A stretch of 64,000 bases of DNA, taken from the NCBI GenBank assembly GCA_016748015.1, contig JAAOMT010000445.1, positions 62,001-126,000 of the forward strand. The letters are read 5' to 3'. Source of the DNA: Geosiphon pyriformis uo1. Lineage: Eukaryota > Fungi > Glomeromycota. Position 1 is the first letter of the stretch. Every line of letters begins with the position of its first letter. Below are positions 1 through 63,314 of this stretch, one piece after another. Both the position numbers and the translations under genes were made by a program. The notes beneath the pieces were generated by a model, which had not been told where the DNA came from, ran no database searches, and was given only the letters and a program-made list of their open reading frames with translations.

Positions 1-15
1 AATTAAAAACCTTAC

Positions 16-34473: not shown

Positions 34474-34506
<33 letters not shown>

Positions 34507-38300: not shown

Positions 38301-38870
38301 CACTTGTGAAAATATCTTACAAAATCCAATATTTTATCCAATGAAGATTCAGTACATTAAAAAACTTACAGAACTGAAATTTTATCAATTTTCAGATTAG
38401 ATCACTTCAATTATTTTGGACTATTATCTTAATATTACAGATAGTGTTTGGACTTTAATAAAGCTCAGTTTTAAGGAGGAAGTTATATTATCAGTAGAAT
38501 TTTAATTATTAATTATGATGCAAACCATTTATAATTATCAAAAATGTAAATCAGTCTGAAATTTTAAATGATGATCTTTATGTGTTTTTATTTATATAAT
38601 TAAATTTTATTGGTTAATATACATGTGTTTTTAATATATTATTTATAAGTAAGAGGTTTATTAGGCTTTTACAAAAAAATCTGGGTTTTATTTACTTGAA
38701 CTAATACATTTCATACATTTTTTGCATCAAAACAAACTCATTAAAAAATATACAACACTAATAAAAAAGAGCTATTCAAGGGTATGGGCTTTAAAACAAC
38801 TTTAGTTTTCTCAATCAAAGTAAAACCAAAGATCTTTTAATTCCAATCTGATTCCTCTAAATTAACACCA
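35350..38870 (+). mobile_element. Gypsy element C: decayed, internally deleted relative of element A (RT C-terminus, RNase H, integrase, ORF3, PPT, start of 3' LTR at 38486)
   Basis: LRGFVGLASYY, VALNASY/FGAILSQ-type RNase H, IGINLLGPL and DYLTKWSEARAI integrase motifs, all with many stops. ORF3 at 37802-38500. PPT aaggaggaag at 38473-38482. Right end approximate. Confidence 0.85.
37802..38503 (+). pseudogene. ORF3 of element C
   Basis: MIILQNIQQLSQKLMLALKT...CYKLRAAFRLYNLF... is clearly homologous to ORF3 of A; interrupted by in-frame stops. Confidence 0.8.
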
Positions 38871-39764
38871 ACTGTTATAAGTTTCTTGATTATTGTGATA
38901 AGCTATTATATATCACATTCTAATAAGTTGTTGAAATATTTAACAATCGAAATTCTTTTTACAACCTAGGAAACCAATTTTAAAACTAGATTATGATTTG
39001 TTTAAATACATGATAGGTATTTTAGTCATTATATTTCTCTTTGGTATAATTCATTATTTAAATATTAAATTTAACCAGAAATCTTTATTACAGGGGATTT
39101 CGTATATCTCTTAAATTCAAGCAATTCTTTGAAATGCAACATTATAGTCATTAAAAAGTTATTTGTGAATTCAAAGTAAGTATTCACATTATAATAATGC
39201 AAGGTTACAAATAGAGTGCAAATAATATTTTCAAATTCTTTGATAATTGCTCATAGTACTTTTACAATTTCTTTGACACCTGATGTAAACAATATTGATA
39301 TCTGGGTTTTTGTTCCAATAATAACAACTGAATATAGTGATGGTATAAATAGAATATTCATGGTTAATAATGCCGTGTCACCAGTAGAAGACACACAGGC
39401 TAAGAGATATTATATCTTTATAAAAAAGTGATCATCTAAAGATTAGATTAATATTAATTGAAAGCCTTTCTGAAAATGATAATACTTCGATGATTTATCA
39501 CATAGTAATGTGACTTTAATGATTGCTGATTGGCTAAAATCTGATTGATTAGCATCCGAAAATTAAAGATTAATAATAAAAGTGGCTAATTTTAAACTTT
39601 AATAACTTTATAAATTATAATATAATTCAAAAAATTAAACTGTAAATGTAAAAGAAAAGAACTTAATCTATCATATTTACAGTTTAGTTTTTTAATATTA
39701 TTAAAATTGGAAGACTAGATACAATTTAAAATTATATAAATTGTTTAATGACTATAAATAGTTT

Positions 39765-40719
39765 GCATCATAGCATAAAATTACTCTTATAATTTCTATT
39801 ATTAATTAGTATATATTATTATTATTTCAATTATTACTTATTAATTAATTAAATTATTAAATATTATTACTCAATTAATAACTTGATTTGTACCATAGAA
39901 ATTAAGATGATCAAATTACACAATATTCTGAATCATTTATTATAGTCAAAATTTGCCAAAATTGATGAAAATTTGCCGAACTAATCAATAGTTTGTAGAA
40001 ATAACTTGTAGTTTGCCAAAATATATCTTTAGTTTATCAAAATTAGAGCAAAAAAAAAAGTGCAAGTTCAAAGACTAGTACTACAACAAGTTGTATAAAA
40101 GAAAAGCTTCTATCTTCAAGAAAATATATCTTATCTTCTTATAGTATCTTACCATAGTATCTTACTTTAGATATCTTAATTAGAACAAATTACCTTTTAC
40201 ATATTTAAATAAAAATTAAATATTCGAAAACCAAATTAGTTGATTATTGCACTTGAAATTCTCTCAACACAACTAATATTTTGAAATTAATTAGTTACCA
40301 ATTTCAGTAATCTGTTAGTGATTCCAGGCCTAAATAGAAAACGTTTTTCTTGTTAGAATTCTATTTCTTTTACATTTCTTTTATTTTTCCTTTTTTTTCT
40401 TATTATAATCATTAGAGTAGCCTATAGACAAAATTCCTGTAGAAGAGTTGACTTTCATAGCAAAGTAACTACATATTTTTAGTGAACTTTCAGATGAACA
40501 ATTTTTGGGAAAGAGTCGACATTTATTACAACATAGCTACATAAAATAATTGACAAGAAATTGGTCATTTCACTTATAAACTTAGCAGTTCAAATTATAG
40601 GAGATAATTTGAAGATAAATTCAGTTATTGGAGATTTAATTGCTTCCAGAAAACGTGAAATTAGCAACAGACAAATATTAACAACATTCAAAAAAAGAGA
40701 CCAAAAACCTTCAGTAATA
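39765..40719 (+). mobile_element. Solo LTR of the element-A family
   Basis: Reverse-complement similarity to 52025-53005 along nearly the whole length, ending ...ccaaaaaccttcagtaata (cf. ...ctccagtaaca). No flanking internal domain. Confidence 0.85.
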
Positions 40720-42736: not shown

Positions 42737-45700
42737 TTTTTTTTTTATTCATTTAATGAGTGAAATCCAAATACTGCCTAGTATAATACATCAAAAAATT
42801 GATTTAAACTAGGTGTGAATCATGCATTTACTACACATAACCAGTTACTCAAGCCAATCAAAATAACACTAAGCACTTATATAAACAGAAATAGGACTCC
42901 CAATACCTGAGAGAAACAAATGAGACTTACAAAACTTAAAACTTATACCAAATGTCTTATCAATACCCAACAGTCTAATTATATCAGCAGAAAATGATGA
43001 AGACAGCCCAGAAATTGGTTTTAAAATTGACTCATCAGATAGTATCAGCCCATTCTTTTCCATAAAAGCACAATGCTTAGCACGAACTGACCAAATCTTT
43101 TCTCTAAAAGCAAGACAAAAACTACACACAAAGTCTACCATCTTCCAACTCACACTCTTGGAGTTTTTGAAAACTGATGCAGCTTCATGAAGCCAGTTCT
43201 TAAAAACAAAACTCTTGTAAAGAACTGTACACACCACAGCATTTGAAACACAAGATGACAACAATTGAAACACACACAAAAAGGAGATGGAAAGACCAGA
43301 AATTGTGCACCATATAGTTGCATGGACATCTAACAAACAATAACAGGTTGAATTATCAAACATGCAAGAAAAAGCATGATCTGAGACTTCAACATTGTCA
43401 TAATACAGACACAATACACTGAGGTAACATTTATTATACAATTACTTCCGTACAGCAACTAGTAACTGACAATACAAAGCTTTCATGAAATATGTTTGAA
43501 TACTAGCAGTAAGTTTACTAGTAAAACCTGCAGCCATGTGTAAGTCAGGATGCTATACTGAGAAAAAGCTACACCAATTCACATCTGAAAGCAAACTACT
43601 ATCTAAAACACCAGAACCAAAACCAAGTTCCCAGCATACATGATGAATAGAGTGAAAAATCTCATGCACAAAATGTCTAAAATTCCCAGAAACAACACTA
43701 TCCTTTGCTAAAATACAATGTTCTTCTAAGCTGAGAAAAAAGCACCAAGAGGAATGAGAAGCTGCATCAGCAAGAGCATCAGCATGTTCATTACCTAAGA
43801 TACCCGAATGATCTTTAATCTTGTACCAAGTAACACTTAAATTCTTTTTCCTAATAATGTTCACAATATGCTGACATTCAACCCAACACCAATTCCAAAA
43901 ATCTGAATGCACCAAACTTAATTTCAATATGCATGCATCCAAGGCAGCTTGACTGTCCATGAAAAAATGAACCAAGTTGAAGGAGGGGACACACTCAAGA
44001 GCTAAAGCTATAGTCTATAGTTCCGCTAAAGTAAAAAACAACAGACCAGAAACCCTAACTCCTAAATCCAAGTTGATGTCCTTAAAAAAGACTGCTGTAC
44101 CAGCCCTCATGTCAGTACTGTCCAAGTTCTGTAGAGATTTATTCATATATACAGATATGATATTATTCATGACATCCAACAATTGATTACAAATAAAACC
44201 AAACTTATTAGACCTTAAAACACTTGAAATGCCAGAATCATCCAAAGAGGAAAAATAAGCAGAGGGAAAGGCTAAACCACCAAGAAAATCAACAAATAGC
44301 CTAAACCAGTCAGGAACAAGGCCACGTGGGTTCAGCTTTTTCCAATGCTTGAAGGTTTTTCAGTCAAAAATAGTATCTTTCTGACTATGAAGTTGCTTAA
44401 CAAAAGCTATACTATAATAATGAAGAGAGGGAAAAAACCTATAGAACTCAGATTTACTAAGAACAGTTAACATAAAAGTGCTATTCTGAATACAGAAGGA
44501 GCTAATAATTGGACCACTCAAAGATAAGTTGCAATCAAGAAAAATATGAACCACACCTGCCAGAAAATTATTGGAAGGGCTGACTCTTATGTGAGCTGGA
44601 GAGTTCAAAAAATAAAGTGGACACCAACTCAGAGCTTACAAGTTAAGAGACCTGTGTGAAAACAAACATCTCAAAATCTCAACAGAGTTCACAAAACACA
44701 CAACAGAAGCCACCTTGTTTTCAGCCTGAACTTGCTCAAAAAATTTCAAACCATACAATGAAGAGTGGTAAAATACATCACTAGGAAAGTTGTGAGGAAG
44801 ACCAGATTTCAATTTTAATACTTTGTGAACCATAGCATCCCACTTTTCACACACCCCAATAAAAACAAAATTGAATTGCATCCTGTAGCCAACAATAGGA
44901 TACAGAACAGCAGACACCAAATATGAGAACTGTTTATCTGAAATGGTCTTCCTCAATACAAGATTGACAAAAAACCTGACATCCGAATGTGTCTTAACTA
45001 AACTAAGCTTTGATAAACCATCTGTAAACAAAAAGATACCCAGATAGCAATAAGATTCCCCTTTCTTGGCAATGGAAATAGGCAAGCCACTGATTGACAA
45101 AGAAAGACATTCTACCCCACAATTAATAGAAATGACCACCGTTTTGTCATTATTAATGGAAATGTTATTGATTCTAAAAAATTCACTGGCAACATTAAAG
45201 ATGTGTTGTGTTGCAGTTTGACTGTTACCAACCCATATCATGTCATCAACAAAAGTACCAGCAACAAGAAAGGAGATCAACCCAGCCTGAGATTCTACAT
45301 GACCAGTCCTGGTAATAAAATAAGAATTCAACCTATAACCACACACACTTTTTTGCCTCTTGACTTCACATAAAAGGGGATTATAAAAAATGTGCCAAAG
45401 AAGAGGTAAGAAAACCTCCCTCTGATTCAAACCATCAAGCACCCAATATCCATTCATCAAACCAAAATTTGTCATAATTCTGTTGACACAATCATTGTGT
45501 ATGCCACCAAAAAATCTAATGAACTTATCACACATTTTTATTCTGACCAAGTTTCTCCTAAGATGCTTTCAATTAACTGAATTGTAGGCCTTCCACATGT
45601 CTTGCAAGACCAACCAGAGCTCATGGTTCTTTTCCAATGCATTCTCAACCACCGAACCTATGGCAAAAATAGGAGATTACATGGTCATACCCTTTAAAAC

Positions 45701-45742
45701 CGAGAAATTGTCCCTTTGTAAAATGTCAAAAGTGTTGCATGC
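42737..45742 (-). mobile_element. LINE (non-LTR retrotransposon), 3' part: RT C-terminal half, RNase H, C-terminal Cys/His knuckle, 3' UTR, polyA; pseudogenised
   Basis: LVLQDMWKAYNSV, GLNQREVFLPLLWHIFYNPLL and TFVDDMIW (RT); AEL.TIALAL, DSQAA and KIKDHSGILGNEHADALA (RNase H); CLYYDNVEVSDHAFSC; stop at 42869; AATAAA followed by an A-tail (T-run 42737-42746). Confidence 0.92.
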
Positions 45743-46529
45743 TGTTACAGTTCAAAAATTTAATAGAAATTATAAATAATATAAATTAGCCAATCATGAA
45801 ATAGCACAGCAACAATTTATAAAAAGAAATGATTTGCAAGCACTATTGTGCAAAAACAGCAAGCACTATTTCACAATAGCAGCAAGCACTATTTAAAAAT
45901 AACAGAAATAGAGTATTACAAGATGTTATTTTGTAAAACAATAATTATATATATATACAATAGTTTTTAATGATGAAAAAGAACAAGCTTCAACTAAAAG
46001 CAACAAATATCTAAATAAAATCTTATTCAAAAAAAAAAGAATTAATAAAAATAATAAATTGAATAAACATCACAATTACGAAATTAACAATAGAATTCAC
46101 ATACCCTCTCTAGCAAATGAAACTATCATTCTATCTTTAAACTCTTTGGAAGAATAATTTCTGATCAAAATTATTCATGTGGTTATTAATTAAATTAAAA
46201 AAGCTTTATTATATACTTAGAGAAATCGCAAAAAGACCATTAACACTTCATGTTTTTAGATTAGAGAAACACATCAGAAAATTGCAAGGATAGCCTCAGA
46301 GAAGACCCCAGACAGTGGGTAGATTTCAGATTAGCCTCTGGGAAGGAGTACACAACATACAAAGACAACTAGAATTAAAGAAAAGACTTATATCACAACA
46401 TCAAGAGAAAACCTTCAGTACATTATCATTAATATCCAATACATAAAATAGAGAAACTCACGAGAGACTAATTGCAATTAAAATAGGAGATCAACAATTA
46501 AAATATACCAAAAAAACTATCTCATAACA
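45743..46529 (+). repeat. 5' LTR of element B
   Basis: Direct repeat of 62518-63314; contains ~21-bp subrepeats (gcaagcactatt...). Confidence 0.95.
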
Positions 46530-49500
46530 TTTAGTGAACCCTACAAGAAAAGAAAATCAAAAAGAAAATAATAATTAGCAATAATTTATTGCTAAAAAAG
46601 AAAAAACAAAAGTGGCGACAAAAACTCCTAACCTTACTGTTCTTGAATTCTGCCGTGTTATTTACACACAAAATCAAAATGATCTTGAATTACCAGAAGG
46701 GTGTTGTCCAGCAGAATCTGTTCTCACTTATTATATCAACACTAGAATAAATTATCATATAAGAAAAGAAGAAGAACCACATGACACAAAACTTGGATTG
46801 TATAGAAAATTATCACAATACACTACAAAGAAAATAGCAGTAATAGCCGCAACTATTGTCAAAATCCATCAAAAAATTGAGCAATATGCCAATAAAAATT
46901 TTTCAATATTCACAGGAAACACTAAGAAATGCGCCAACAAAACCAAAAAAAATTTAAAAACTAATCAGGAAAGTAACCAGCAAAAACTAGGAATACTTGC
47001 TCAAACACCAAAAAAAACTGTCATTTAATCAATAAAAAAACAATGTATTTATTTACCAGAAAATAAATCATACCATTTTTCACCAGAAAATAAGATACAA
47101 ATTCTATTAGGAGCTGCATTATTATCAACATCAACTCCACAAATGCCAAAAACTCCTAGTTATATTGATAAAATTAAACAATGTAACTGGGGAGACATAC
47201 CAATTACAGGAGGATATTCATTGTTATTCCAAAACTCTTTTTTTTAACCAAAATTCAGAATGAGATTTGAAAACCATGAAGAGGAGTCTGAATCAAAATC
47301 TGAAAAAGAGACCAACAAAAAAACAATCACAAGACTGGTTACTAGAACAAGCAGCCAGTTTAGAAACCAAGAAACTTGTGATTAAGAGGAAAAACCAGAT
47401 ATAAAGAAAGCCACCTTTAGGAATGCTCAAAGAAATATCATCCCACTTTTTCTTAGACTAATAAGCCCACCAGCAGAAAATGACGACAAAATAGCCACAC
47501 TATACATCGCAAGACTAACAGATTTCTCAGAAGAGAAAGAAGAAATGGACATGTACATGTGACTTAAAGAAGCACAAAAAGCCATCCAGGCAAATAACTG
47601 GAATGACTAAAGAGCAATTCAAATATTATTTTTCTTTCTGAAAGGCACAGCTGACTCGTGATATTAAAGCCTGGAAACAAAACTCATGAGCTTTGTCAAA
47701 TTTAAAAATGCACTTCTGGAGTATTTTAACAACCCAAATGCCGTAATTCAATTACAAAACGAATTCAATATTATCAAGCAAGATACTGGTGAAACTGTCA
47801 CCCAATACCTTGCTCGATTCAATTGAATTTGCTATTAGATTAAAGCAATTGAACAAGGATATTACACTGATTTTCAGGTTTTAAATTAGTTTATTAGAGG
47901 ATTAAAAAGCAGCATTTTAGGAAGAGTATGCTCTGCCCACCTTAATTCCTTACCAGAAGCCATTATGCTCATTAGAGCTCTTGAATCAGCTAAGAAAGAA
48001 GCTAACCATAGTCAAATGGTTAACATAGTAATGGAAGAAAATAAGACAGAAACATTAGAGAAAAGAGTAACACAATTAAGAGAGGAACTCTTTAAGAAAA
48101 TAGAAAGTTACCTCATCTCAGATTCAAAAAGAAATACATACCAACCACTCCAAAAACACAGCCAAAAAGTCAGCAACAGTTGAAATAATTGCTCATCACA
48201 CCAAGAATTCAGAACAGAAATGCGTACCTGCTATTTTTGCAAATGTGTAGGATATTTGATTAGTCAATGTCAAATGCGAATGATACAGGAAGCATGCAAA
48301 AATAATTATTATGCACCACCCCAAATGCCCAGAAACCAGTACATACCAATACCATGCCAATATCTCACTATGTATCAAAATCAAGAAACTTATCAGCAAC
48401 AGTCCATGATAGCCAACCCGAATTGGCATCCCGAGCCCCGAAATCAGCCCATGTGGAACTAAAACATGTTGGTCCAGAGGAATTCAAACCATGCTGGAAC
48501 CAGTCAGCAAACCAATTCAAACTACCAAAATTATCAACAAATTTACCTTAATATACCAAAAAATCTGATTATCAGAAACAATAATGATAAAAACATAAAC
48601 AAAACCAAAAATTCCTCCAACAAATTGAGCCAAACAATATTACCAGTAGTTGTTACCAAAGATAACAGCCTCGCAGCTATTTTTTCTTTTGAATTAGAGA
48701 AAAATGAGACTATGTTCAGTGGAGCAGCATTGGACAAAAAACACCTAATTACTGCTATATATACAGAAGCCACTGTAAACAATACCCCAATCAAACTTAT
48801 CTTAGATAGCAAATCTGCTGGAAGCATCATAACGCTTCAACTAGTAAACCAACTGGGTTTCAAAGTTGATAGTGCTGCGACATCCCAAATCATAACAGCC
48901 AATAGAAGTACAAAGCTGTCTCATGGTAAAATCGACTCATTTTCTTTTGAAATTAATAGCATAGTAATACCTACAAAAGTATTAGTAATGGATACTACAC
49001 AATATTAAGTGTTAGTAGGGAATGACTGGCTAACAAAAGCCAATACCACCTTAGACTAGACCACCCAAAAGCTTCTGATCAATTATAATGGCCACCAGGC
49101 CAGAATTTCAGCCACTTGTGGCCACTTCCAAAAACCCAGCATCAACCAAAAACCTACCTTTGAATTTGAGGAAAATCCAGCACTACCAGCCATCAAAACT
49201 TATTAGCTCTCTTGGGCTAATAACCAAAAAACAGGACTACCAGCCATACCAACGTGGACCAGTGAAGGAAGATCCAAATGGAACCAAATAAGTCTATAAA
49301 AAAACCGCCAGCAATGCAAACCAAAACTAGAATATTCGGTTTGCAATAAGAAACTCTTATCTATGATTGCATGCAGCACACCAGACAAAAACTCAAGAAA
49401 CCTCACCTACTATTATTGTAACCATTATAACAAAAAAAAATACAGTTACCCAGAAAGACATGGAAAATGAAATGAAGAACTGTGTCTCGCTTGTGAAGAA

Positions 49501-50079
49501 CCATTACCAAAAAAGTGTGACTGGATCGACATGTCAGGCAGAGGAGAAACATGTGGTGCAACTTGCCAATACATGATCTTCATCTGTGACTGAGTAAGAA
49601 AAGAAACGCCATTCGAAGCAGGATTCAACAGAGTGTTAAAAAGACTATAGCACTACTCACATGATAAGAACAAGTTGTACAACACTGCACAGGCCAAAGT
49701 AAGAGAAGAAACTGCCAAAGAAATATGACATTGGAAAGAGTCAGCCGAAGTAGCCAACGAAGTTGTCAGCTACAATATGTTCAACCCAGTGGACAAATTC
49801 CAAGACTACTACCAACAACTATGCCCCACTTGACAAAAGCAAGAACAATATCTCACCCAAATCAACACTTATCTCTGCAAAAACTGTCTTACCCCATGCC
49901 AAAATCAGTGCTGTAAAGAGTGTCAAGACAAAAGGAACTTAGAAAGAAAAATGGAAATTGAGAATTAGCATTCTCAAAATCAATAAATAAATCAATAAGA
50001 CTTACCTGATGGTCCCAAGTCAAAAAAATTTGTAGTCTATACTGACCTAGAACAGATAATTGACATCTGATACTTTGAC

Positions 50080-50500
50080 AACGGACACTTAGGAATAATA
50101 TCCAAAAGAGCCCATCCAACTGACACCAGATTCAATTTATGTTATCTGGAAGACAAATCCACAACATTACTACCCAGGAGCATCACCAAATTGACCTGAA
50201 AATAGTGGTTAAAATTCTGCCAGAAATAATGATTCAAATAGCATCGCGATCAAGTCTCGTAAAAAAAGGAATAAGTATTCAAGGAGGAGTAATTAACTCT
50301 GAATACACTGGAAATTTGATGGTTTTACTACAGAACAATTCAGAAAAACCTTATATAATTGAATCTAAAGAAAAGATTGCACAAGCAATTTTTTTACCAT
50401 TGGTAAAAATTGGGAAATTTGTGCCAGTAGAAAATTGTGAGGAATTGATACAAACAATAAGAAGAACTTTTGGTTTCAGATCAACAGGAAAAGGAATTGA
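50080..50500 (+). pseudogene. dUTPase domain in the pol of element B
   Basis: RAHPTDTRFNL, QIASRSSL, GGVINSEYTG, KIAQAIF, RRTFGFRSTG: all five trimeric dUTPase motifs, with a frameshift near 50190. Confidence 0.9.
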
Positions 50501-52024
50501 AGCAAATTTTGCTGAAACAATAAAAAAAAAAGCAAATTAATTAAAACTGAGCAGTCAATCATGCTCACATCTTATGGAAAATCAGAAATTAAAATAAAAA
50601 GAACAATAAAAGATATAAATTTAATATTTGAGCCCCATCCAAAAACTTGTTAACAGTTTCTCATAGGATTTACTAATCTTTTTATTCCAGCTGACAAAAC
50701 ACAATAGATAAAAATTCTTATCATAAATACCACAAAAGAGCTCATATACATTCCAGAAAACACCATTATAAGATATCTTGAAACAGAACTAGAAAACGTG
50801 TCAATACTACAAGAAATTTTAAATTTCCCAGAAATTGCTCTCTACTGTAAACTCACTTCAATAAATTGACAACAACTGTTGGAATGCTATCAATTTATGC
50901 CAGAAGAATTGGCCAAATTAAACATTGGAACAATGGATCTTGACCAACAGTGACAATTAAAAGCATTAATTTTAAAATACTCTGATATATTTTCATGAAA
51001 TGGTAAATTTGAAAAAACCAACTTGGTTCAACACCAAATCCCCACTGAAGACACCAGACCTGAAAAACAATATGCTTACTGTGTTCCACTAATGGAGCAT
51101 AATTTTATCAGAGAAGAAGTCCAAAGCATGTTGAAAAAAGAAATAATTCAACCATCAATGAGCTCATGGTCCTCACCAGTTGTTTTAGTAAGGAAAAAGA
51201 ATGAAAAAATTAGATTTTGCATTAACTATCGCAAACTAAACAGCAAAACAACCAAAGACTCATACCCAATACCATTAATTGACAAAATCTTCAATGTTTT
51301 TGGAGAAGCAAATTGGTTTTCTACACTTGACTTGACCAGTGAATACTGGCAAGTGGAAATGAACCCAAAAAACAGGCATAAAACAGTATTCACAACACAA
51401 AATAGCAATTATGAGTTCAATGTAATGCCATTTGGATTGATAAACACTCCCATGACATTCCAAAGACTAATGGATGTAATTTACTCTGGAATTCTGTGAC
51501 AATCCGTTGTTGTCTACTTGGATAATACAAATGTTTTCTCGCCAAAATTCATGAATCATCTCCAATATTTACAACAAGTTTTTGAGAGATTGAGACATGC
51601 TGGACTTAAATTAAATTTAGAAAAATGTTTCTTTGGGAAAAATAAGCTAGCATTTCTAAGACACATAGTTGGAAAAAATAGAATAAAACCAGATTCATCA
51701 AAAATAGACAAAGTGAAAAATTTTCCAATACTTCAAAACGTTTCAGAAGTTAAAAGCTTTTTAGAACTTGCATCTTATTACCACTGCTTTGTAAAAAACT
51801 TTTCAAACATTGCCAAACCTCTTAATTATCTACTATCTAAAAATGTGAAATTTGAATGGATCGAAACACAACAAAAAACTTTTAAGTATCTTAGGCAAAA
51901 ACTCATTGAATCACCAATAATGATCTATTCAGATTTCAACAAAAAATTTATTTTGGCCACAGATGCCTCTGGAACTGGACTTGAAGCCATTTTTTTACAA
52001 AAAAATGATAATGGAAGAGAACAT

Positions 52025-53005
52025 TGTTACTGGAGATTTTTGGTCTCTTTTTAGCTCTTGTATGTTTGTTGTAATACTGTTAATTCATGACTATGGGAAG
52101 TATTTGAACCTCCGATAACTGAATTTTATTTTTAAATTATTTCCTATAATTTGAACTGCTGGGCTTATAAGTAGAATGGTCAATTCCATGCCAGTTGCTT
52201 TATGTAGTTACATTGTAGTAAACGTCAACTCTTTCCCAGGAATTGTTTGTCTGGAAGCTCACTAAAAATGTGTAATTACTTTGCTGTGAAAGTCAACTCT
52301 TTTACAGGAATCTTGTCTGTAGGCTACCCTAATGATTATAATAAGAAAATAAAAGAAAGAAAATAAAAGAAATGTAAAAAAAATAGAATTCTGTCAAGAG
52401 AAACATTTTCTATTCAGGCCTGAAGTCACTAACAGTTTACTGAAATTGGTAGTTAATCAATTTCAAAATGTTAGTTGGGTTTTGGGGATTTTTCTAAGTG
52501 CAATAATTAAAGAATTTGGTTTTTCAAATTATTTGATATTTATTTCTTTTTGTGTATGTAGAAATAGTTCTAAGTAATAAATCTAAAGTAAGATATATTT
52601 TCTTGAAAAAAAAAGCTCTTCTTTTATACAATTTATTGTAACACTATTCTATGAACTTGAACTTTGTTCTTTTTTACAATTTCACTAAACTAAAGATACA
52701 TTTTGGCGAACTACAAGTTATTTCTGTGAACTATTAGATATTTCAGTGAACTGTTAATTATTTTGGCAAATTTCTACAAATTTTGGTGAACTTTTGAATG
52801 TTACATATTTCGGAGTATTGCATGATTGATCATTGCACTTAGGTTATATTTGTGTTATGTACAAATTGGGTTATTAATTAAATGATAATTTCGGACATTT
52901 TGCTAATGTAATAGGTGATAATTTGAAACAATAATATATGCTAATTAATGATAGGAATAAAGATAATTTCATGCTAAATAATATCTCTAATTTCGTCTAG
53001 TAACA
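52025..53005 (-). repeat. 3' LTR of element A
   Basis: TGTTAC...TAACA; direct repeat of 60920-61889. Confidence 0.96.
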
Positions 53006-53689
53006 TAATCTCCTTCTCAAGACTGAGCTCCATCAAAGTCCAAGTACTGTCTGTAATTTCCAGATAATAATCCAAAATTATTGAAGAAATTTGGTTTGAA
53101 AATTGTTGAAATTTCAATTCTGTGAGCTTTTCAATTGAATCTTCAAAGATTGTAAAATTGGGTTTTGTAGGACGTTTTCACAGATGTGAAATAGGTCATA
53201 AAGTCTAAGAGCAGCTCTTAGTTTATAACAACTGTTTGTAGATCCAGCTGTTGTCTTGAATTCATTGTGGAGTTGTTTCCGAATAGCTTTTTTTGTGAGA
53301 TTTGCTGCTGTAAGCTTCTGTTTTTGTTTGTGAAGTGTTTTTTTAATGTAGAAATATTTATATATTGAAGTATAGTCATAGTTTTTTTTATTAAGACACA
53401 GTTGAAGTTTTTGTTGAATAGTAGCATTTGGTGAAATACTAATAGGAGTGAGCATTAAGTTTTCTCTTAAAGCAAGCTTTAAAAGTTCTGGCAAGTAAAT
53501 TCCAGAATAACTTCTTGTGTTCTTCTTATATGGGTGATATTTTCGTGAATTTGGGGCTAAATTTGTAACTACTTCTGTTTGGGTATAATTAATGTGGCTT
53601 CCAGTAACAGTAATAGATAATTCGAGTATTGTTTTTAAAGCTAACATTAGTTTTTGGGATAATTGTTAAATGTTTTAAGGAATAGTCAT
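52974..53689 (-). pseudogene. ORF3 of element A (post-integrase accessory ORF, unknown function)
   Basis: Own ATG at 53689; homologous to 37802-38500; small frameshift near 53135; the frame continues ELSLEKEIMLLDEIRDII* through the PPT into the LTR. Confidence 0.8.
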
Positions 53690-56600
53690 TATAAGAGATT
53701 TGAAAATAAAAGAAAATTATTTTTGGTGTATGGGTTTTTATTATTTTTGCTTTGTTTTTGTGAGATTGTTTCTAAATTATAAGGAGATAACTATAATAAT
53801 AAATTTAAGTTAAGTGTTCAAGTTGGGAGGTTGTTCAATGATGACTATTGGTTCTAAATTTTGGGGAATATCTTTGGGATTGATTAAAAGGGAATGTGTA
53901 CCAATTTGTGGAATTAATAGTTCAGGATTGTTTCTAGAATTATAGTGTTTTAAACAATCTTCATGTGCAACTTTTGCTAAGATTTTGTCATCAAGTCTTA
54001 GCTTGTATGATCCGTTGTCTAAGACTTCATGGATAAAGAATGATCTATCCCATTTATTTTCAAATTTTTCACTCTATTGTTTTTTAGCTTTAGTTTTGTG
54101 TAAGAGAACTTTGTTTTCAATTTTAAATCCATTGGTAACTGGAGGCAATTTGTTGTCATGCCATTCTTTTTGTTAAGCTTGGAAGTATTTAATATGGGTG
54201 GCTGCTATTCGTTGTTTTTCTTCCAATGTGCTAAGCAGTATGTAGGCTCTTCATTGTAGTGTTTCTTGAAAGTTGTCTTTATTAATTGGTTGTACTGAGT
54301 ATGTTTCTATTATGAAACTAATTGGTAACGTTGCTGTCCTTCTGTAAGTTAAATCAAATGGTGTGTGTTTTGTGGTATCTTGTTTTAGTGTTCTATATGC
54401 TAGTAACACTGATGGAATAAAGAGATCCTATTCTTGCTCAAAATCAGTTGAGACTTTGGCTAATGATTCACACAATGTACTGTTGAAACATTTTACAAAT
54501 TCATTTGTTTGTGGATAGTAGGGCAAAGATAATGGTCTTTTAATATTAAATCATCCACAAATTTCCTGGATTAAATTGTTCACAAAATGTGTTCCTTGAT
54601 CAGATAAAAGTTCTATTGGACATCTATGTCTACAAATAATGTCTTTGTAAATGAAGTTTACTACTGATTTCACATCTGCTTATTGAATGACTTGGGCTTC
54701 AGACCATTTGGTGAGATAGTCTACAGCTACTGCAATATAACGGTTTTCTTGGTTTGTAATAGGGAGTGGTCTGACTAAATTGATACTAACTCGATTAAAA
54801 GGCTGTCCAACTTTGATTGGGTTTAAAGGTTCTGTAGAGCGAGTTTTTCCTCTTCTTTAACAACTATCACAAGACTTAATGTATTCATGAATGTCTTTTC
54901 TCATTTGAAGCCAAAAATAATATTCTAGTGTTCTTTGGGTGGTGCTGTCTTTTTCTAGGTGTGTTGATGAAAAGTCTGAGTGCATGTTATATAAAATGGT
55001 TTCTTTTTCATGTTCTTGTATTAATCTGAGTAGATTGTCTGGGTTTCTGAAGTTTCGATAATAAATCATGTTGTTGTGTAAGAAGTATTGTTTGGCTTGT
55101 TGTTGTAACCAATGTTTTTTATTTGAGAACCAATCTGTTGGGATTGTTAATGTCTCCAAATATTGTTTAAGGTTGTTGTAGTTTTCAGAGTTCATTGTTT
55201 GTTGTTTTGTTGTTAATTCAAATGGGTGTTGGTTTTGTATTCTAATCTTGCCTCATTCTTGAGAGACAATTAACATTGGTGTGGAGTTTTTCTGATTTGT
55301 GGTGTACAATGTATTGGTAGTTGGCTAGAAATCCTGTCTATCGGATTTGTTTTGTGTTTAGCTAAGTGTTTTTGTTCTGAAGCCATTTGAGTCCAATATT
55401 ATCAGTGATAATATTAAATTCTTTGGATCTAAGGTAAAGGTTGAAGTGATGTAGAGCCCAGATTACTGCTGCAGTTTTTAATTCTGTTGCAGAGTAGTTC
55501 TTTTCGGCTGGTTTCAATGTTCTACTAGCATAAGCAATTACTCGCTTATTTCTATTATCATCTAACTGTAATAAGATGACACCAAAGGCAGTATAAGAGG
55601 CATCTGTTGCTAACTGAAATTGGTTGCTGAAATCTGAGTAGGCGAGAATTGGAGCTGTTATTAGTTTTTCTTTGAGGATTTCAAATACATTTTGGTGTTC
55701 AGCAGTCCATTTGTATTCAATGTTTTTGGTGGTAAGCTGGTTGAGAGGTTTTGCGATTTCTGAGAATTTTTTGATAAACTTCCAATAGTAGGAGGCTAAC
55801 CCTATGAATCCTTTTAGTTCTGTAGTGTTTTGAAGAGTTTTGAAGTTTTTGACAGTGCTGATTTTTCCAGAGTCTGGTTTGATTCCATTTTTACTAATGA
55901 TGTGACCAAAAAAGGCCAAGCTTGTTTTTCCAAAGTAGCATTTTTTGATGTTAAGTTTCAGTCCTGTTTTTCATAATCATTGAAAAACTTTTCACAAATG
56001 TTTTAAGTGTAATTCAAATGATGAAGAATAAACATCAGTATTGTCAAAATAAATGACTACTGACTTCCAAAGGAGTCCTTTGTACACAATATCTAATCTC
56101 TGAAATGTTGCTGGTGCATTGCATAATCTGAAAGGCATTACATTGAATTTGTAGTTTTTTCCTTGGGTTGTGAAGGCTGTTTTGGAATGATCTTTGGGGT
56201 CCATGGCAACTTGTCAGTATCTGCTTTCTAGATCTAGTGTTGAAAAGTATTTGGCCTTTCCAAGGGCATCCAACATATCATCAATTCAGAGAAAAGGATA
56301 GACATCTTCAATGGTGACACTATTGAGTTGTCAATAATCAATACAAAATCGTATCTTTCCATTTTTCTTTTTAACTAAGACCACAGGTGAGGCCCATAGA
56401 CTTATTGATGGTTGGATAAGCCCATTGTTGAGCATCCGTTGTACTTTTTTGTGGATAAATTGGTGACTTTCTGGAGTAACTTGGTAGGCTTGCTGTCACC
56501 TTAGTTTGACATCTCCTGTATAGATTTGGTGTTAGACCAAATCAATTCTTTCTAAGTCATTGTTGTTTTCAGCAAAGATATCAGCAAATTCTGCAATTAG

Positions 56601-57119
56601 CTCTTTAAGCTGGCTCTGTTATTGTAGTTCAAGTTGTCCCATGTTGATTCGAGATAGTTTTTCCATAACAACATGGTAGTTTTCAAAACTGAAGTTTGGG
56701 TTGATTTTTGGTAGTAAATGTTCAATAATTTCAGAGAAATCAGGAACTGTTTGGGGTAATTCTTGTTGAAAGATATTACTGTGAATAATTCTAATTTCTA
56801 AGTTATTTAATAAAACTATGGGGAAATTGTTGGGATTATAAAAAGTAACTCGGATTTTCTTTGTTCCTTCTGGAATATAAATGTTTGGGATCGAAATATT
56901 ATGTTCCAAACAGATTTGTTCATTGGACTCAAAAATTTGTTGTGTGGTTGTTGGCTTTTCATAAGTGTAAATTTCAGGGTGTTTTCTAAAGAGTGAAATG
57001 GTAATTGGTTGTAGAAGTCATAAAATCTGGTGAGATTTTTTCTGTTCATTGAGGGCTATGTTTACTGGAACTGTGAATTATCTAGTTGAAAAAATCATTA
57101 TTTTTTTCTTATTCTGAGT

Positions 57120-57520
57120 TTTTGGGTTTCTCTTTCACTTTTTCCCAATAGTTCTCTTTAATTGACTAATTGTAAACCTGAAATATTGATTAAGAGTAAA
57201 TAAATGGCTTAGGCAATTTTCTCAGCATGTTCAATTTTAAATGGCTTGTCAGTTTTGTTTTGGAGTATTACTGTTATGTCACCAGTATATCCAGCATTGA
57301 TTATTCCTCCTCTGACATTGATTCCTTTGCTTGCCAAAGAGGACTGGGAGGCAATTTGAACCATTGCTCTTGGTGGGATTTCGAAAGCAATTTTGAGGTT
57401 GATTTTTGTGAGAAATTTGGGTTTGAGAATAAGAGTATCTTTGTCTGAATATTTTAGGTTATATTCAGCATCAATTTTATGTGCTTTTTTGGGTTTTATT
57501 CCTTGTCTATTGTTGTTGAA
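57120..57520 (-). pseudogene. dUTPase domain in the pol of element A
   Basis: KAHKIDAEYNL, QIASQSSLASKGINVRGGIINAGYTGDI, EKIA*AIY. Confidence 0.88.
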
Positions 57521-60500
57521 GTATTTGAGTTATAAGACAGGCTGATTTTCGATGAGATAGATGGGTGTTGTTTCAATTTTTTCTGTTGCTTCAGGTTTTC
57601 CAAATTCAATTTCATATTCATCACTTTCACTGGGCAAGGGGATGCTAAGAACATAGCATTCAGAACACCATTGTTCATCACAAGGCATTATGCATTTCTT
57701 ACATAATTTAATGTTCATTTGTTCTAGCCGTTGAGCTTGAGCTTCTTTAGTCAGGTAGATGTGACTTGTGATTTGATGGTACACTTCTACTTTATCTTCA
57801 TAATCAAATCTAGCTAATTCCATGGTGTATTCAATGTATTCTGCTTCTTTCATTTGACGAACATTTTCTTTGGTAGCTTTATTAACTAATGTCATTGTTA
57901 GATCAAAAATTATTTTAGCATTATGGGGGTAGTGATAAAGTTTGTTGAGAGCATTGTTGTATGCTGCATCAAAAGGTGTTCCTCTTTTGACTTTTTCTGA
58001 AATTGATAAAGCATATTGGCAGGTTTGATTGTAGACTCCTCCTCTTATTGCTACATCAATCCAATTGCATTTTTCTGATAGCATATCTCTACAAGTCAAA
58101 CAAGGGGTGTTGTCCTATTTTCTGCTTCTTTTTATTAAATGGCCCCATTGTTCTCTGTGGCAAGCTTTGCAGTAATAACAAGTATGATTTTCATATTCTT
58201 CTTCAGGTGAAATGCAGGCTCCCATTAAGGAAAGTTTTTTGTGGCAGTCCTTACATTTGAGTAGAATGTAAGGGTGTCATTTCTTTGGTTCTGGTTTAGA
58301 ATATGGGATGTTCCATCCAGAGGTTTCTGGTTCCTCTGGATATGAGTTTGTTGCAAAATATGTTTGCTCAGTTTCTTCAGCCCAGTTAGATGTTAATTCA
58401 AGTACCATAAATGTTTCGACTACAGGCTTTTCTTTCTCTTCTTCAAATTCGAAGACAGGGGTTTTTTCTGATTGTTTGTTGAATGTACCACAAGTAACAA
58501 GTACTCAGGCATGTTGTCCTTGATAGGAGAGTTGTAATTCTTGGGTTTCCCAGTTTAATTTTGCATTGGCTTTTTGGAGCCAATTATTTCCGACAAAAGC
58601 TTGATACTGGGGCATGTTCATTACAAGAATTTTGACTGGAATAGTGATTTCATCAAGAGTAAACAGAAAATTGTCAATTTCTTCTACTGGAGTCTTTTTC
58701 ATGCCATCAGCAATAACGATTACTGTTTGAGCTGGTCAGTTGACATTTCTCTTTAACTGTTGTATTAACTAGTAGGTAATGATACTTCCAGTGGATCCAC
58801 TGTCTAAGATCAAGTGAATTGCCTTTTCTTTGACTTCTGCTTCAGTGTACATAGCAGTGATTGCTTTTTGTTCATTGGTGGCTGTATTGCTAAGCAAGAA
58901 TGGTGACTCATTTGCTTCGAACTCAAAAGAGAATATATCTAAAAGGTTGGCATTTTCAGCAATTCTGGCTGGTGGGATTGTGGTAGAAATATAGGAATAA
59001 TTTTGTTGTCGTGCTGCAGCTCTACCTTCTGAGAGTGCAGTATGGTGAAAATTCTGTTCTTCAGGTATTGTAAGATAGCTAGGTTGAGTATGATAATGGG
59101 TGGGTCTTGGCTGAGCTGGATTTTGGGGAACTAATTGGTTATTTGGGTTGATTCTGTTGTTGTTTGTTGTGAATCAGTTTTGTGGTGCAAATTGGTTTTG
59201 TTAAACCAATCTTCGAGCAGGTACTTAGTAATGTTGAATGGGTTGTCAATACTATTGTTGCATTGGCTGTGGAGCAGGTTGATAGTAATCAGTTTAATAT
59301 TGTGGTTTTGGTGAATAGTAAGTTGGTGATAGTGGTAGTTGGTAATAAGATTGTTGTGGCGAAGGGTAACATTGATTACTCCTGTTTTGTTGGTCTTATT
59401 GTAGCTTTCTGCAATCTCTTTTCTAATGGCCAGGGATTCCACAGTAATGGTAATTTTAAGGCTGGTTATTAGAGGATAATACGAAGTTGTTTTAATTCCG
59501 TCTTTGGGGTGGTTGATATCTTTGGGGTTGCTGTTGTTGTTGGTTGGTGAAATAGTTTTCGATTTTCTTTGTAAGTTGGTCAATTTTCTCTTCAGCTGTT
59601 GAGCTGGTCTTTCTAATGACTAAGTTCATAAGTTTTGTTTGGCTTCTTTCATGGCCATTTCATATCTGAATGGCAAAGTTTAAATCTTCTGAAGCATGTG
59701 GGCAAATCTTTTTAATCAGTTTATCCTTTAAACCAGCAATAAATTGATCCAAGATTTGAGCATCAGAATAATAATCATTAGTTTTAAGTTGGTGAATTCA
59801 TCTAAAAAGTTTGTTGAATTTTCTAATATAAGTCATGACAGATTCGGAGGGTTCTTGTTTGATATTACGAAAACAATTTCAAAGTGTAATTGAGGTGTTG
59901 TTATTGGTGAATTGTTCTAAGAAAGCAGTTTTGAAAGCTGTCTAGTCATTAAAAGGGGTGGTCAAGTTTTCAAACCATTCACCTGCTATTTCTTTGAGAA
60001 AGTAGGGAATTGTTTTTAACATTCTGACAACATTCCATCCATTTGCATCTCCAGCTTTAGTAACTTGGTCGAACTATTCTTGGGAACTGGTCTCAATGTC
60101 TTCTCCATTAAATTCAGAATTTTTTGTGATGTATGCTGTCATTTCGTCTTCTTTGTTTTCACTGTTTATTAATTCTTCTTCAGATATTTCAGAGTTGTTT
60201 TCTTTGTTTGCTGCTGTTTTAGAGTGTTCACTTCGATTTTCAGCTAGAAAGTCAAGGAGATTGGAACTAGTTTGAAGGGGTTCTTGTTGTCTGGTGGGAC
60301 TTCTGGGTGATGTAAAATCTTCTAGTCTTGCAAATCAATTTAAGAGTAAATTAGGTGTTTGTGCTTGTGTAAGTGAAGCTGGAAAAGGTGTGATAGTAAG
60401 TGGAAGTTTTGAACTGGTTTCTTGTTCAGATGTTTGTAAGTGTTTGGCAGTTGTTTTTGGTAGTATTGGAGTATTTGGGGTGGTTTTTGAGTATTGCTTC

Positions 60501-60919
60501 AATTTTTGTTTGCCTTTGTTGCTTGTTTTTGTCTCTGATTCAAAATCAATAGAGTATTAAGACTGCACTAGATATGTTTCTTCACAGTACTTGATAATGT
60601 TAAAATTAAGTTCTTGAAAGTAAGTGGCAAGTGTTTTACTGTTAAGGTCTTCAGTTTCCAACTGTGAATAGTGTACTAAATTATTGTAAAGATTGTTTCT
60701 AACTTTTGAGATATTGTAATTTTCAAAAAGATAATTGTTGATGCAGTTTTCAATGTATTGGTATATTGATTTCTTGACAACATTAATTCCATCTGGAATG
60801 TTGAATCTTTGCTTGCAGTGAGTGTAAATTGACTGGTAATACTCTAGAGTTGTTGCATCTAGTGTGGTCACCACTTTGAAGTAGTTTTTGCTGTGTTGTT
60901 TTTGTAGGAGAGCACCAAA

Positions 60920-61889
60920 TGTTACCGGAGGTTTTTGGTTTCTTCTTAGCTCTTGTATGTTTGTTGTAATGCTGTTAATTCACGACTATGGGAAGTGTTT
61001 GAACCTCCAATAACTGAATTTTATCTTCAAATTATCTCTTATAATTTGAACTGCTGGGCTTATAAGTGGAATGGCCAATTCTGTCATGTAGTTACATTGT
61101 AATAAACGTCAACTTTTTCCCAGGAATTGCTCGTCTGGAAGCTCACTAAAAATGTGTAGTTACTTTGCTGTGAAAGTCAACTCTTCTACAGGAATCTCGT
61201 CTGTAGGCTATCCTAATGATTATAATAAGAAAATAAAAGAAAAAAAATAAAAGAAATGTAAAAGAAATAGAATTCTGTCAAGGGAAACATTTTCTATCCA
61301 GGTCTGGAGTCACTAACAGTTTACTGAAATTGGTAGCTAATTAATTTCAAAATGTTAGTTGGATTTTGGGGATTTTTTCAAGTGCAATAATTAAAGAATT
61401 TGGTTTTTCGAATTATTTGATATTTATTTCTTTTTGTGTGTGTAGAAATAGTTCTAAGTAATAAATCTAAAGTAAGATATATTTTTTTGAAAAGAGAAGC
61501 TCTTCTTTTATACAACTTATTGTAACACTATTCTATGAACTTGAACTTTGTTCTTTTCTACAATTTCACTGAACTAAAAATACATTTCGGCAAACTACAA
61601 GTTATTTCTGTGAACTATTAGATATTTCAGTAAACTGTCAATTATTTTGGCAAATTTCTACAAATTTCGGCGAACTTTTGAATGTCACATATTTCGGGGT
61701 ATTGCATAATTGATCATCACACTTAGGTTATATTTGTGTTATGTACAAATTGGGTTATTAATTAAATGATAATTTCAGACATTTTGCTAATGTAATAGAT
61801 GATAATTTGAAATAATAATATATGCTAATTAATGATAGGAATAAAGATAATTTCATGCTAAATAATATCTCTAATTTTGTTTGGTAACA
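60920..61889 (-). repeat. 5' LTR of element A
   Basis: Adjacent to the PBS; ~11-12 bp deletion near 61085 relative to the other LTR. Confidence 0.96.
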
Positions 61890-62517
61890 ACATGTAATTG
61901 CTTATGTTAGTAGAAGTCTCAGTATAACAGAGCAAAACTATGCAGCACACAAACTGGAATGCTTAGCAGTAGTCTGGAGTTGTGTTTACTTTGACATATA
62001 TTTATGGTACAAACCTTTTGATATTACCACAGATCATAGAGGTCTGGTCTGGTTAAATAACAAGAAAGCGCTGAAAAAAAAATACACCAGATGGTCACAA
62101 ATATTAGCACTATATAATTATATCATCAAATACAAAAAAGGTACCAAAAATGCCAATGCTGACTGTTTGTTAAGAATAAGACACACATAAAAATCATGAA
62201 TCCATCCATCAATTAGAGTATTTGACAAAACAACAATCTAACAATTAGAAAGTTTTATTGGAAAAACCAACAATACATTCAATTCAAAAAGCAGTTTACA
62301 GAATTTTTAAAGCATTTGAAAAATTGTCACAAAGTATTACTAGATCCAACCATAAACATAATAACAACCAACAGTATTAGACAACTTACCAACTTACAAT
62401 TTCAAGAATTACAACAACAAGTTAATAATACAGTATTGGATTACTATAGCAACTTAGAATTCAATAAAAAAATTAACTTTGATTTTGACAGAGCTCAATT
62501 TTGAAAGGAGGGAATAA

Positions 62518-63314
62518 TATTACAGTTCAAAAATTTAATAGAAATTATAAATAATATAAATTAGCCAATCATGAAATAGCACAGCAACAATTTATAAAAA
62601 GAAATGATTTACAAATAACAGCAAGCACTATTGTACAAAAGCAGTAAGCACTATTATGCAAAAGCAGCAAGCACTATTTAGAAATAACAAAAATAAAGTA
62701 TTATAAGACGTTATTTTGTAAAACAATAATTATATATATATACAATAATTTTTAATGATGAAAAAGAACAAGTTTTAACTAGAAACAACAAATATCTAAA
62801 TAAAATTTTATTCAAAAAAAAAAGAATTAATAAAAATAATAAATTGAATGAATATCACAATTATGAGATTAACAATAGAATTCACATACCCTCTTTAACA
62901 AATAAAACTATCATTCTATCTTTGAACTTTTTGGAAGAATAATCCCTAATCAAGATTATTCATGTGGTTACTAATTAAATTGAAAAAGCTTTATTATATA
63001 CTTAAGAAAATTGTGAAAAGACTATTAACACTCTGTGTTTCTAGATTAAAGAAACACATCAGGCAATTGCAAGGATAGCCTCAAAAAAAACTCCAAACAG
63101 TGGGTAGATTTCAGATTAACTTCTGGGAAAGAGTATACAACATACAAAGACAACTAGAATTAAAGAAAAGATTTATATCACAACATCAAGAGAAAACTTT
63201 CAGTATATTATTATTAATATCCAACACATAAAATAGAGAAACTCATGAGAGACTGATTGCAATTAAAATGAAAGATCAATAATTAAAATATACCAAGAAA
63301 ACACTCTCATAACA
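62518..63314 (+). repeat. 3' LTR of element B
   Basis: Follows the PPT; the terminal TG has mutated to TA; ends cataaca. Confidence 0.95.

What the first reader, a model, noticed from the sequence alone, without database searches (positions are those of the whole stretch)
57640..58260. Unknown ~200-aa Cys-rich (putative multi-zinc) domain between protease and dUTPase
A reads ...WDNTPCLTCRDMLSEKCNWIDVAIRGGVYNQTCQY...KRGTPFDAAYNNALNKLYHYPH...MNIKLCKKCIMPCDEQWCSEC. B (49320-49930) reads ...*NEELCLACEEPLPKKCDWIDMSGRGETCGATCQY...RKETPFEAGFNRVLKRL*HYSH...INTYLCKNCLTPCQNQCCKEC. The shared CxxC, C-x-WID, RG, TCQY, TPF, HY.H and terminal CxxCxxPCxxxxCxxC pattern is conserved across two families. It is in frame with the polyprotein at a position where Gypsy elements normally have no domain. 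It could be a chromatin/nucleic-acid reader or an anti-silencing factor (speculative).
Basis: partly seen in the sequence, partly recalled or inferred. Interest (0 to 1): 0.72.

Follow-up and report, generated by a model that had tools for sequence, protein, structure and literature searches.

The report
Orphan zinc cassette in fungal retrotransposons
Two dead jumping-gene copies in a fungal genome carry an unnamed, conserved cysteine-rich stretch of about 205 amino acids between their protease and dUTPase; it is predicted to bind three zinc ions, and its last 46 residues, which also occur as small separate genes elsewhere, likely dock onto another protein rather than onto DNA or RNA.

Summary
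Copy A (58264-57644, minus) and copy B (49324-49950, plus) are decayed Gypsy LTR retrotransposons of a Geosiphon-type fungus. They share a ~205-aa cassette between protease and dUTPase (local score 344, best of 1000 shuffles 64; third-codon pattern of purifying selection). It recurs in several Geosiphon families, in Ambispora, and unbroken in a metagenome polyprotein. No Pfam, NCBIfam, PHROGs, PDB or fold match was found. New here: the last ~46 aa (two helices plus a CxxC-x8-CxxC knuckle) form a separable module. It sits before dUTPase in a distant intact Gypsy with different upstream fingers, and ends small non-polyprotein ORFs in 7 of 8 metagenome loci. Unbroken versions are acidic (pI 4.1-4.6), unlike nucleocapsid. 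Best reading: a protein-docking adaptor (about 0.4). Rivals: dUTPase tether, chromatin reader, passenger. Anti-silencing is possible but untested. The scan held no look-alike sequence; two earlier notes describe other Cys/His modules at this position in other genomes.

The parts
52025..61889 (-). Element A: decayed Gypsy LTR retrotransposon, 9.9 kb, TG...CA ends, 4-bp target duplication ACAT, inserted into element B
60920..61889 (-). 5' LTR of A (92.8% identical to the 3' LTR)
52025..53005 (-). 3' LTR of A
58517..58861 (-). Aspartic protease of A (58% identical to P0162)
   Evidence: Pfam Asp_protease_2 on relatives
58139..58264 (-). Predicted zinc site 1: CxxC-x24-CxxC (Cys codons start at 58255, 58246, 58171, 58162)
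   Evidence: zinc binding inferred
58001..58123 (-). Predicted zinc site 2: CxxC-x19-CxxxC; TAG stop at 58117-58115 just before it; third Cys is Tyr in this copy
   Evidence: zinc binding inferred
57800..58000 (-). Predicted helical core (three-helix bundle, then a helix and an acidic patch)
   Evidence: AlphaFold model; coordinates
57644..57796 (-). C-module: two helices then CxxC-x3-C-x4-CxxC (predicted zinc site 3); the part shared with other elements
57116..57544 (-). dUTPase of A, broken (stops, altered motifs, frameshift at its end)
   Evidence: Pfam dUTPase on relatives
55254..56606 (-). Reverse transcriptase and RNase H of A, with stops
53996..55207 (-). Integrase of A, with stops
   Evidence: tblastn with the L005 integrase
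49324..49950 (+). The same cassette in element B (second family, 5 stops)
45745..63314 (+). Element B: LTRs at about 45745-46529 and 62520-63314 (89.9%); protease 48748-49092; dUTPase about 50056-50490; RT/RNase H 50945-52024 continuing at 61888-62178 after the insertion of A; no integrase hit

Best explanation
This is a conserved, unnamed cassette in the Pol polyprotein of dUTPase-bearing Gypsy retrotransposons of Geosiphon-type fungi, predicted to bind three zinc ions and likely acting as a protein-docking adaptor. Shown: it is translated in frame between protease and dUTPase in unbroken relatives, it evolved under protein-level constraint, and both window copies are dead. Shown: its last ~46 aa occur behind different cysteine-rich front ends, in a distant Gypsy and in small separate ORFs, and are acidic. 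Inferred: the element's protease would cut the cassette out, alone or joined to dUTPase. Inferred: the constant acidic C-module would grip a fixed protein partner while the exchangeable fingers in front choose the target, as adaptor proteins do. The partner is not identified; a host factor that several kinds of mobile element must deal with, such as a silencing or degradation component, is the likeliest class.
For: Reality and selection: A versus B score 344, shuffles max 64; third codon positions 0.25-0.44 identical against 0.51-0.68 at first and second, as in the protease (0.37 against 0.56/0.76). 11 of the 12 proposed ligand columns were counted and hold Cys in 80-97% of covering rows (443 rows from 393 stored proteins); the twelfth lies before the profile and was seen in the alignment. 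Unbroken context: P0162 has protease, cassette, dUTPase and RT in one ORF; L005 has a 2018-aa Gag-Pol with the C-module before dUTPase. Modularity: a profile built from Geosiphon-type rows only scores the C-module at 14-67 bits in all 8 loci and in P0218, P0229, P0232, P0250, P0391-3, while the upstream modules hit only P0162, P0363, P0204. None of 3000 shuffles reached the real score in any of 7 sequences tested, also with cysteines held in place. Charge: unbroken cassette net -15, pI 4.6; four non-polyprotein carriers pI 4.1-4.5; C-module median net -5 in 194 rows. Elements here are under C-to-T pressure: 60 of 60 differences between the LTRs of A are transitions, CpG observed/expected 0.19 against 0.90 in a neighbouring host ORF.
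Against: No partner, cleavage site or zinc binding was shown. Acidity argues against nucleic-acid binding only for the C-half: site 1 and the helical core are neutral to mildly basic (median +3 and +1), and the dUTPase is basic in P0162 (pI 8.8) though acidic in L005 (5.3). dUTPase follows the module in 83 of 95 stored proteins long enough to tell, which fits a tether as well, although these rows are mostly near-copies from one species. The loci with non-polyprotein carriers are 1.1-2.1 kb, so a dUTPase gene nearby is not excluded and their element type is not established. Many conserved C-module residues could be helix caps and core rather than a binding face. Models are middling (pLDDT 68 and 76, pTM 0.46). 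L008 passes its cysteine-fixed control only narrowly (13.9 against 13.5).
Confidence: 0.4

Rival explanations
1. The cassette stays fused to dUTPase and tethers it to the reverse-transcription complex through nucleic acid, as nucleocapsid does in betaretroviral NC-dUTPase.
For: Precedent in PMC1802613 (abstract and section 12 read) and an extra zinc knuckle beside dUTPase in rotifer Juno elements (PMC5408684 passages). dUTPase follows within 200 aa in 83 of 95 proteins; P0162 dUTPase pI 8.8, in the betaretroviral range 8.2-9.0.
Against: No CX2CX4HX4C knuckle; cassette plus dUTPase is acidic as a whole (pI 4.7 in P0162, 5.0 in L005); 43-121 aa of linker in the three cases read; the C-module ends small ORFs without dUTPase in 7 of 8 loci.
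Confidence: 0.2
2. It is a chromatin reader that steers integration or protects the new copy.
For: Multi-zinc, acidic surfaces can bind basic histone tails (general knowledge); conserved Trp and Tyr in site 2 (98%, 99%).
Against: Targeting domains of Gypsy elements sit on integrase (chromodomain; PMC2864245 passages), about 2.5 kb downstream of this cassette. No PHD, chromo, MYND or RING match.
Confidence: 0.12
3. It is a passenger or spacer captured with dUTPase and kept only because the polyprotein must fold and be cut correctly.
For: Upstream fingers differ wholly between the Geosiphon type and L005; identity to P0162 in the cassette (28-48%) is below that of the protease (58%).
Against: Cysteines and several non-cysteine residues are 80-99% conserved; the C-module is kept between elements whose RT regions are only 43-60% identical and in ORFs outside polyproteins.
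Confidence: 0.15
4. It is a known domain too diverged for these searches (for example a TRASH-like treble clef plus a RecR/TtuA-type knuckle) or already annotated in a transposon database.
For: RecR chains fill ranks 1-6 of the C-module fold search, TtuA also appears, all at E 1.3 or worse. The treble-clef likeness of site 2 is recalled, not from a call.
Against: No hit at threshold in Pfam, NCBIfam, PHROGs, PDB sequences, PDB folds or BFVD.
Confidence: 0.13

Closest known systems
Fungal Gypsy elements with dUTPase between protease and RT (PosPlaTy3-5 of Postia placenta; Phanerochaete and Tuber elements; PMC2864245, passages read)
   Same: LTR element with order PR-dUTPase-RT-RH-IN.
   Different: The passages read describe no insert between PR and dUTPase; here 200-550 aa with several cysteine clusters lie there. 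Clade kinship was not tested.
Juno LTR retrotransposons of bdelloid rotifers (PMC5408684, passages read)
   Same: dUTPase between PR and RT with an extra zinc motif next to it.
   Different: Juno has one knuckle after dUTPase; here three Cys4 clusters and a helical core come before it.
Betaretroviral NC-dUTPase (PMC1802613, abstract and section 12 read)
   Same: Zinc-binding module N-terminal to a trimeric-type dUTPase in a retroelement polyprotein.
   Different: NC is a basic CCHC knuckle from Gag; this cassette is Cys4-type, acidic overall, lies after the protease, and part of it occurs without dUTPase.
RecR / TtuA Cys4 zinc knuckle
   Same: Helix followed by CxxC-x8-CxxC; top but non-significant fold rows.
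   Different: Only a 16-residue knuckle is alike; TM-scores about 0.3; an extra central Cys; no RecR or TtuA domains.
VANC anti-silencing proteins of Arabidopsis VANDAL transposons (PMC6719617, passages read)
   Same: Element-borne accessory protein of a host that methylates its elements: the functional analogue if the boldest reading holds.
   Different: No sequence link was found or tested; VANC is a separate gene of DNA transposons that acts through a DNA motif.

Membership tests
Ty3/Gypsy LTR retrotransposon | Paired LTRs with TG...CA ends and a target-site duplication | tested here: met
   52025-53005 and 60920-61889, 92.8% identical, ACAT on both sides
Ty3/Gypsy LTR retrotransposon | pol order PR-RT-RH-IN | tested here: met
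Ty3/Gypsy LTR retrotransposon | gag with capsid domain upstream | tested here: inconclusive
   Pfam Retrotrans_gag/Ty3_capsid in relatives P0150 and L005; in copy A only judged by eye
dUTPase-bearing fungal Gypsy (PosPlaTy3-5 type) | dUTPase between PR and RT | tested here: met
dUTPase-bearing fungal Gypsy (PosPlaTy3-5 type) | Same RT clade (chromovirus) as the published elements | not tested
   No reference RT sequences were at hand
PHD / RING / zf-MYND fingers | Eight interleaved ligands with a conserved His (C4HC3, C3HC4, or MYND spacing) and a Pfam match | tested here: not met
   Conserved ligand candidates are cysteines in three separate clusters; His columns vary; no Pfam hit for whole or parts
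PHD / RING / zf-MYND fingers | Cross-brace fold | tested here: inconclusive
   Fold rows covered only model residues 82-134; sites 1 and 2 were barely tested
Retroviral nucleocapsid (NC-dUTPase) | CX2CX4HX4C knuckle | tested here: not met
   Absent from the cassette in all aligned rows
Retroviral nucleocapsid (NC-dUTPase) | Basic fusion protein | tested here: not met
   Cassette plus dUTPase pI 4.7 and 5.0 in the two unbroken polyproteins
RecR/TtuA-type Cys4 knuckle | Helix then CxxC-x8-CxxC | tested here: met
   Sequence and model
RecR/TtuA-type Cys4 knuckle | Significant structural match | tested here: inconclusive
   Foldseek E 1.3 or worse; VIA best Z 2.5
TRASH/FCS-like treble clef (site 2; recalled lead) | Profile or fold match | tested here: inconclusive
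   No Pfam row for site 2 of A or B at E 10; not folded alone
c-type cytochrome | Conserved CxxCH | tested here: not met
   Weak Cytochrome_C7 row (E 0.0025, under cut-off); His is Asn, Tyr or Ile in other families
Transposon anti-silencing factor (VANC-like) | Lowers host silencing of its element | not testable with these tools
   Needs expression experiments

The most novel reading that the evidence does not exclude
The acidic C-module is a counter-defence handle that Gypsy retrotransposons and other integrase-bearing or virus-like elements of soil fungi have exchanged: it recruits a host silencing or degradation factor, with swappable zinc fingers in front selecting the target. That would be a protein anti-silencing factor inside a fungal retrotransposon polyprotein, in a lineage whose genome is about 41% LTR sequence.
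Probability: 0.12. Interest if true: 0.8.

Novelty: new variant of a known kind. Interest (0 to 1): 0.5.

Why it matters
Gypsy pol genes are well studied and rarely carry large unnamed domains. This one marks several high-copy families in Geosiphon, where LTR sequence covers 41.2% of the genome (PMC11952901, passage read), and many 'hypothetical protein' gene models of that genome are fragments of it. Unbroken natural versions exist (P0162, L005, P0229), so it can be tested without rebuilding a dead copy. A review read here lists only three transposon-encoded anti-silencing mechanisms as of 2019, all from plants (PMC6719617); a shared docking module would give a direct way to find what fungal mobile elements bind in their host.

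Tried and rejected
No whole genome was held for this window. Library searches without a hit at threshold: Pfam, NCBIfam, PHROGs, PDB sequences (one search returned dUTPase from flanking columns and nothing for the module), Foldseek PDB, BFVD (52), VIA-align (42: best Z 6.7 on a 52-residue helical bundle, within the range of common arrangements; 97: best Z 2.5), GenBank phages. First metagenome scan: 44 stretches, none related. Five scans of viral contigs gave no locus. Whole-length homology of the small ORFs to the cassette, suggested by eye, was rejected: profile scores 10-15, reached by 2-14 of 60 column shuffles; L005's upstream fingers likewise did not match. A tree of 35 C-modules (55 columns) is unresolved; one Gypsy clade is neither shown nor rejected (p-AU 0.18), so no donor can be named. 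A TATA-binding-protein-like, giant-virus reading of the gene beside the module in L006 and L008 is recalled and found no support. dUTPase origin was uninformative. Sequencing runs: no RNA holder listed. Cytochrome-like CxxCH was rejected. Literature searches that listed no paper describing this insert; term look-ups gave 0 'dUTPase' and 0 'zinc' in PMC11952901, PMC3248453 and PMC10640383 and nothing in PMC4531489. The Geosiphon genome paper (recalled) did not appear in the listings; no supplements were read, and Repbase, Dfam and GyDB entries could not be searched, so an annotation there is not excluded.

Full report
Observation. The peptides quoted for A (minus strand) and B (plus strand) are in the window. 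The 'W' before DNTPC in A is a TAG stop at 58117-58115. A and B align across the cassette with local score 344; 1000 shuffles gave 36 +/- 6, max 64. A profile of the cassette finds only these two places in the six frames of the window, at 288 and 195 bits, all else under 2 bits.

Setting. A is a 9.9-kb LTR element at 52025-61889 with 92.8% identical LTRs, TG...CA ends and an ACAT duplication. Its order is protease, cassette, dUTPase, RT, RNase H, integrase, so it is Gypsy-type. It is inserted into the RT/RNase H of B, a second family whose RT region is 55% identical. Both are dead: stops in every domain, and the LTR differences are transitions in 60 of 60 cases for A and 66 of 72 for B. In the one DNA run laid, 9834 contig pieces fit 57000-59000 at 80% or more, and all 40 differences shown (of 305) have A or T in the window against G or C elsewhere: a high-copy family decaying by C-to-T.

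Relatives. The first search gave 248 hits among 278 candidates; of the 120 listed, 119 are 'hypothetical protein' of Geosiphon pyriformis and one is the window's own, which points to that fungus as the source. A word-free search of 1.84 billion representatives gave 142 hits; of 20 looked up, 13 are Geosiphon, 1 is Ambispora gerdemannii (P0183) and 6 are unnamed metagenome proteins. Profile searches added 47 Geosiphon plus P0162 and 91 Geosiphon plus 4 unnamed. Geosiphon rows fall around four seeds 25-41% identical (183, 122, 40 and 11 rows, 24 unassigned; a rough split). P0162 is an unbroken 1064-aa ORF with protease, cassette, dUTPase with whole motifs and the start of RT. So the cassette is part of a translated polyprotein, not a quirk of two pseudogenes. 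Third codon positions between A and B are less alike (0.25-0.44) than first and second (0.51-0.68) in all four parts, as in the protease.

Anatomy. Three clusters of four cysteines persist: site 1 CxxC-x24-CxxC, site 2 CxxC-x19-CxxxC, site 3 CxxC-x8-CxxC with a fifth, less fixed Cys in the loop. Eleven of the twelve columns were counted and hold Cys in 80-97% of covering rows. AlphaFold gives a helical core between sites 2 and 3 (pLDDT 68, pTM 0.46, residues 1-27 poor). Zinc binding is inferred, not shown. No library gave a match at threshold; fold rows covered only the three-helix part, so sites 1 and 2 are barely tested by fold.

The separable C-module. A metagenome scan with the last ~46 aa gave 8 loci from 16 candidate stretches. 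L005 holds a 2018-aa Gag-PR-insert-dUTPase-RT-RH ORF and an integrase ORF; the module again lies before dUTPase, but the cysteine clusters upstream do not match the Geosiphon type. In the other 7 loci the module ends a short ORF that is not a polyprotein. In L001-L004 it faces a retropepsin-like gene tail to tail (Pfam rows below cut-off for L002 and L003, none for L001; L004 judged by eye), with a gag-like ORF in L003 and an integrase-chromodomain gene and a DUF5679-like ORF in L001. L006 and L008 have a shared unnamed neighbour (42% identical). Module scores of 14-67 bits came from a profile built without these sequences, and none of 3000 shuffles reached them in 7 of 7 sequences tested, also with cysteines fixed; L008 is marginal. 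Homology further upstream was not supported, and the tree cannot give a direction. The module alone folds as helix-kink-helix plus knuckle (pLDDT 76), with only non-significant RecR/TtuA rows.

Charge. The unbroken cassette is acidic (net -15, pI 4.6) and so are four non-polyprotein carriers (pI 4.1-4.5). Copy A is near neutral, probably because G-to-A change turns Glu and Asp codons into Lys and Asn (inference). Site 1 and the helical core are neutral to mildly basic; the acidic patch and C-module have median net -5. Betaretroviral NC-dUTPase depends on a basic fusion (PMC1802613 section 12); here cassette plus dUTPase has pI 4.7 and 5.0, though the P0162 dUTPase alone is basic.

Mechanism. 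Variable zinc fingers in front of a constant acidic module that also works outside polyproteins is the layout of an adaptor. I put 0.4 on protein docking, 0.2 on a nucleic-acid tether for dUTPase, 0.15 on a passenger, 0.13 on a known domain missed, 0.12 on chromatin reading. Cleavage, partner and zinc are all untested. A counter-defence role is a sub-case of docking: these elements show CpG depletion (0.19-0.25 against 0.90 in a host ORF), and Rhizophagus methylates its elements (10.1101/2021.03.30.436303, passages), but nothing here links the cassette to silencing.

Known and new. dUTPase between PR and RT is published for basidiomycete elements and rotifer elements, Juno with an extra knuckle (PMC2864245 and PMC5408684, passages). 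LTR expansion in Geosiphon and Ambispora is published (PMC11952901, passages). Eight literature searches listed no description of this insert; supplements and transposon databases were not seen. The scan's index held no look-alike sequence but two notes on other Cys/His modules at the same position in other genomes; I took the Juno paper as a lead from one and read it.

Verdict. A real, unnamed accessory cassette of a fungal Gypsy group, dead in this window, with a small module shared across element types. New variant of a known kind; interest 0.5.

Noticed in passing
window 52025-53005 vs 60920-61889; 45742-46529 vs 62517-63314: LTR pairs differ almost only by transitions (60 of 60; 66 of 72), mostly outside CpG (48 of 60; 62 of 66), with CpG depleted. 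This resembles repeat-directed C-to-T mutation; a paper read here says RIP signatures were not detected in Gigaspora margarita or Mucoromycotina.
   Followed up: partly
window 53114-53860 (minus): Extra ORF between integrase and 3' LTR of A (183 aa still open), no Pfam match; L005 also has an unnamed ORF there, similarity not significant (E 0.17).
   Followed up: partly
window 35471-40717 (plus): Third, 5'-truncated element about 74% identical to the 3' part of A (RNase H, integrase, extra ORF, LTR); it lacks the cassette region.
   Followed up: partly
window 33921-35347: 1.4-kb stretch with about 330-bp inverted ends (80% alike), like a non-autonomous DNA transposon.
   Followed up: no
window 42869-45568 (minus): RT-like and RNase H-like fragments with weak Pfam rows, possibly a decayed non-LTR element.
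   Followed up: no
window 9807-16826 (minus): Unbroken 2339-codon reading frame with no Pfam match and a 72-bp tandem repeat at 12098-12457.
   Followed up: no
window 1-1686 and 26845-27516 (minus): Host-like genes: CUE domain with weak DUF1771; HATPase_c-like exon.
   Followed up: no
L001 1-2071, L002, L003, L004: Compact elements with genes on alternating strands: retropepsin-like, gag-like, integrase with chromodomain, DUF5679-like, and the small cysteine-rich ORF; no RT in these short contigs. The integrase looks Maverick-like (recalled, untested). Element type unknown.
   Followed up: partly
L006 217-1020, L008 3-512, L007 2-508: Unnamed gene beside the module in L006 and L008 (TBP-like by recall only); in L007 the module is fused to two NPxTxRxI-type repeats.
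   Followed up: partly
L005 127-699 and 8478-9248: The contig begins with the integrase C-terminus and ends with its N-terminus, so it is circularly permuted; integrase is in a separate frame from Gag-Pol.
   Followed up: no
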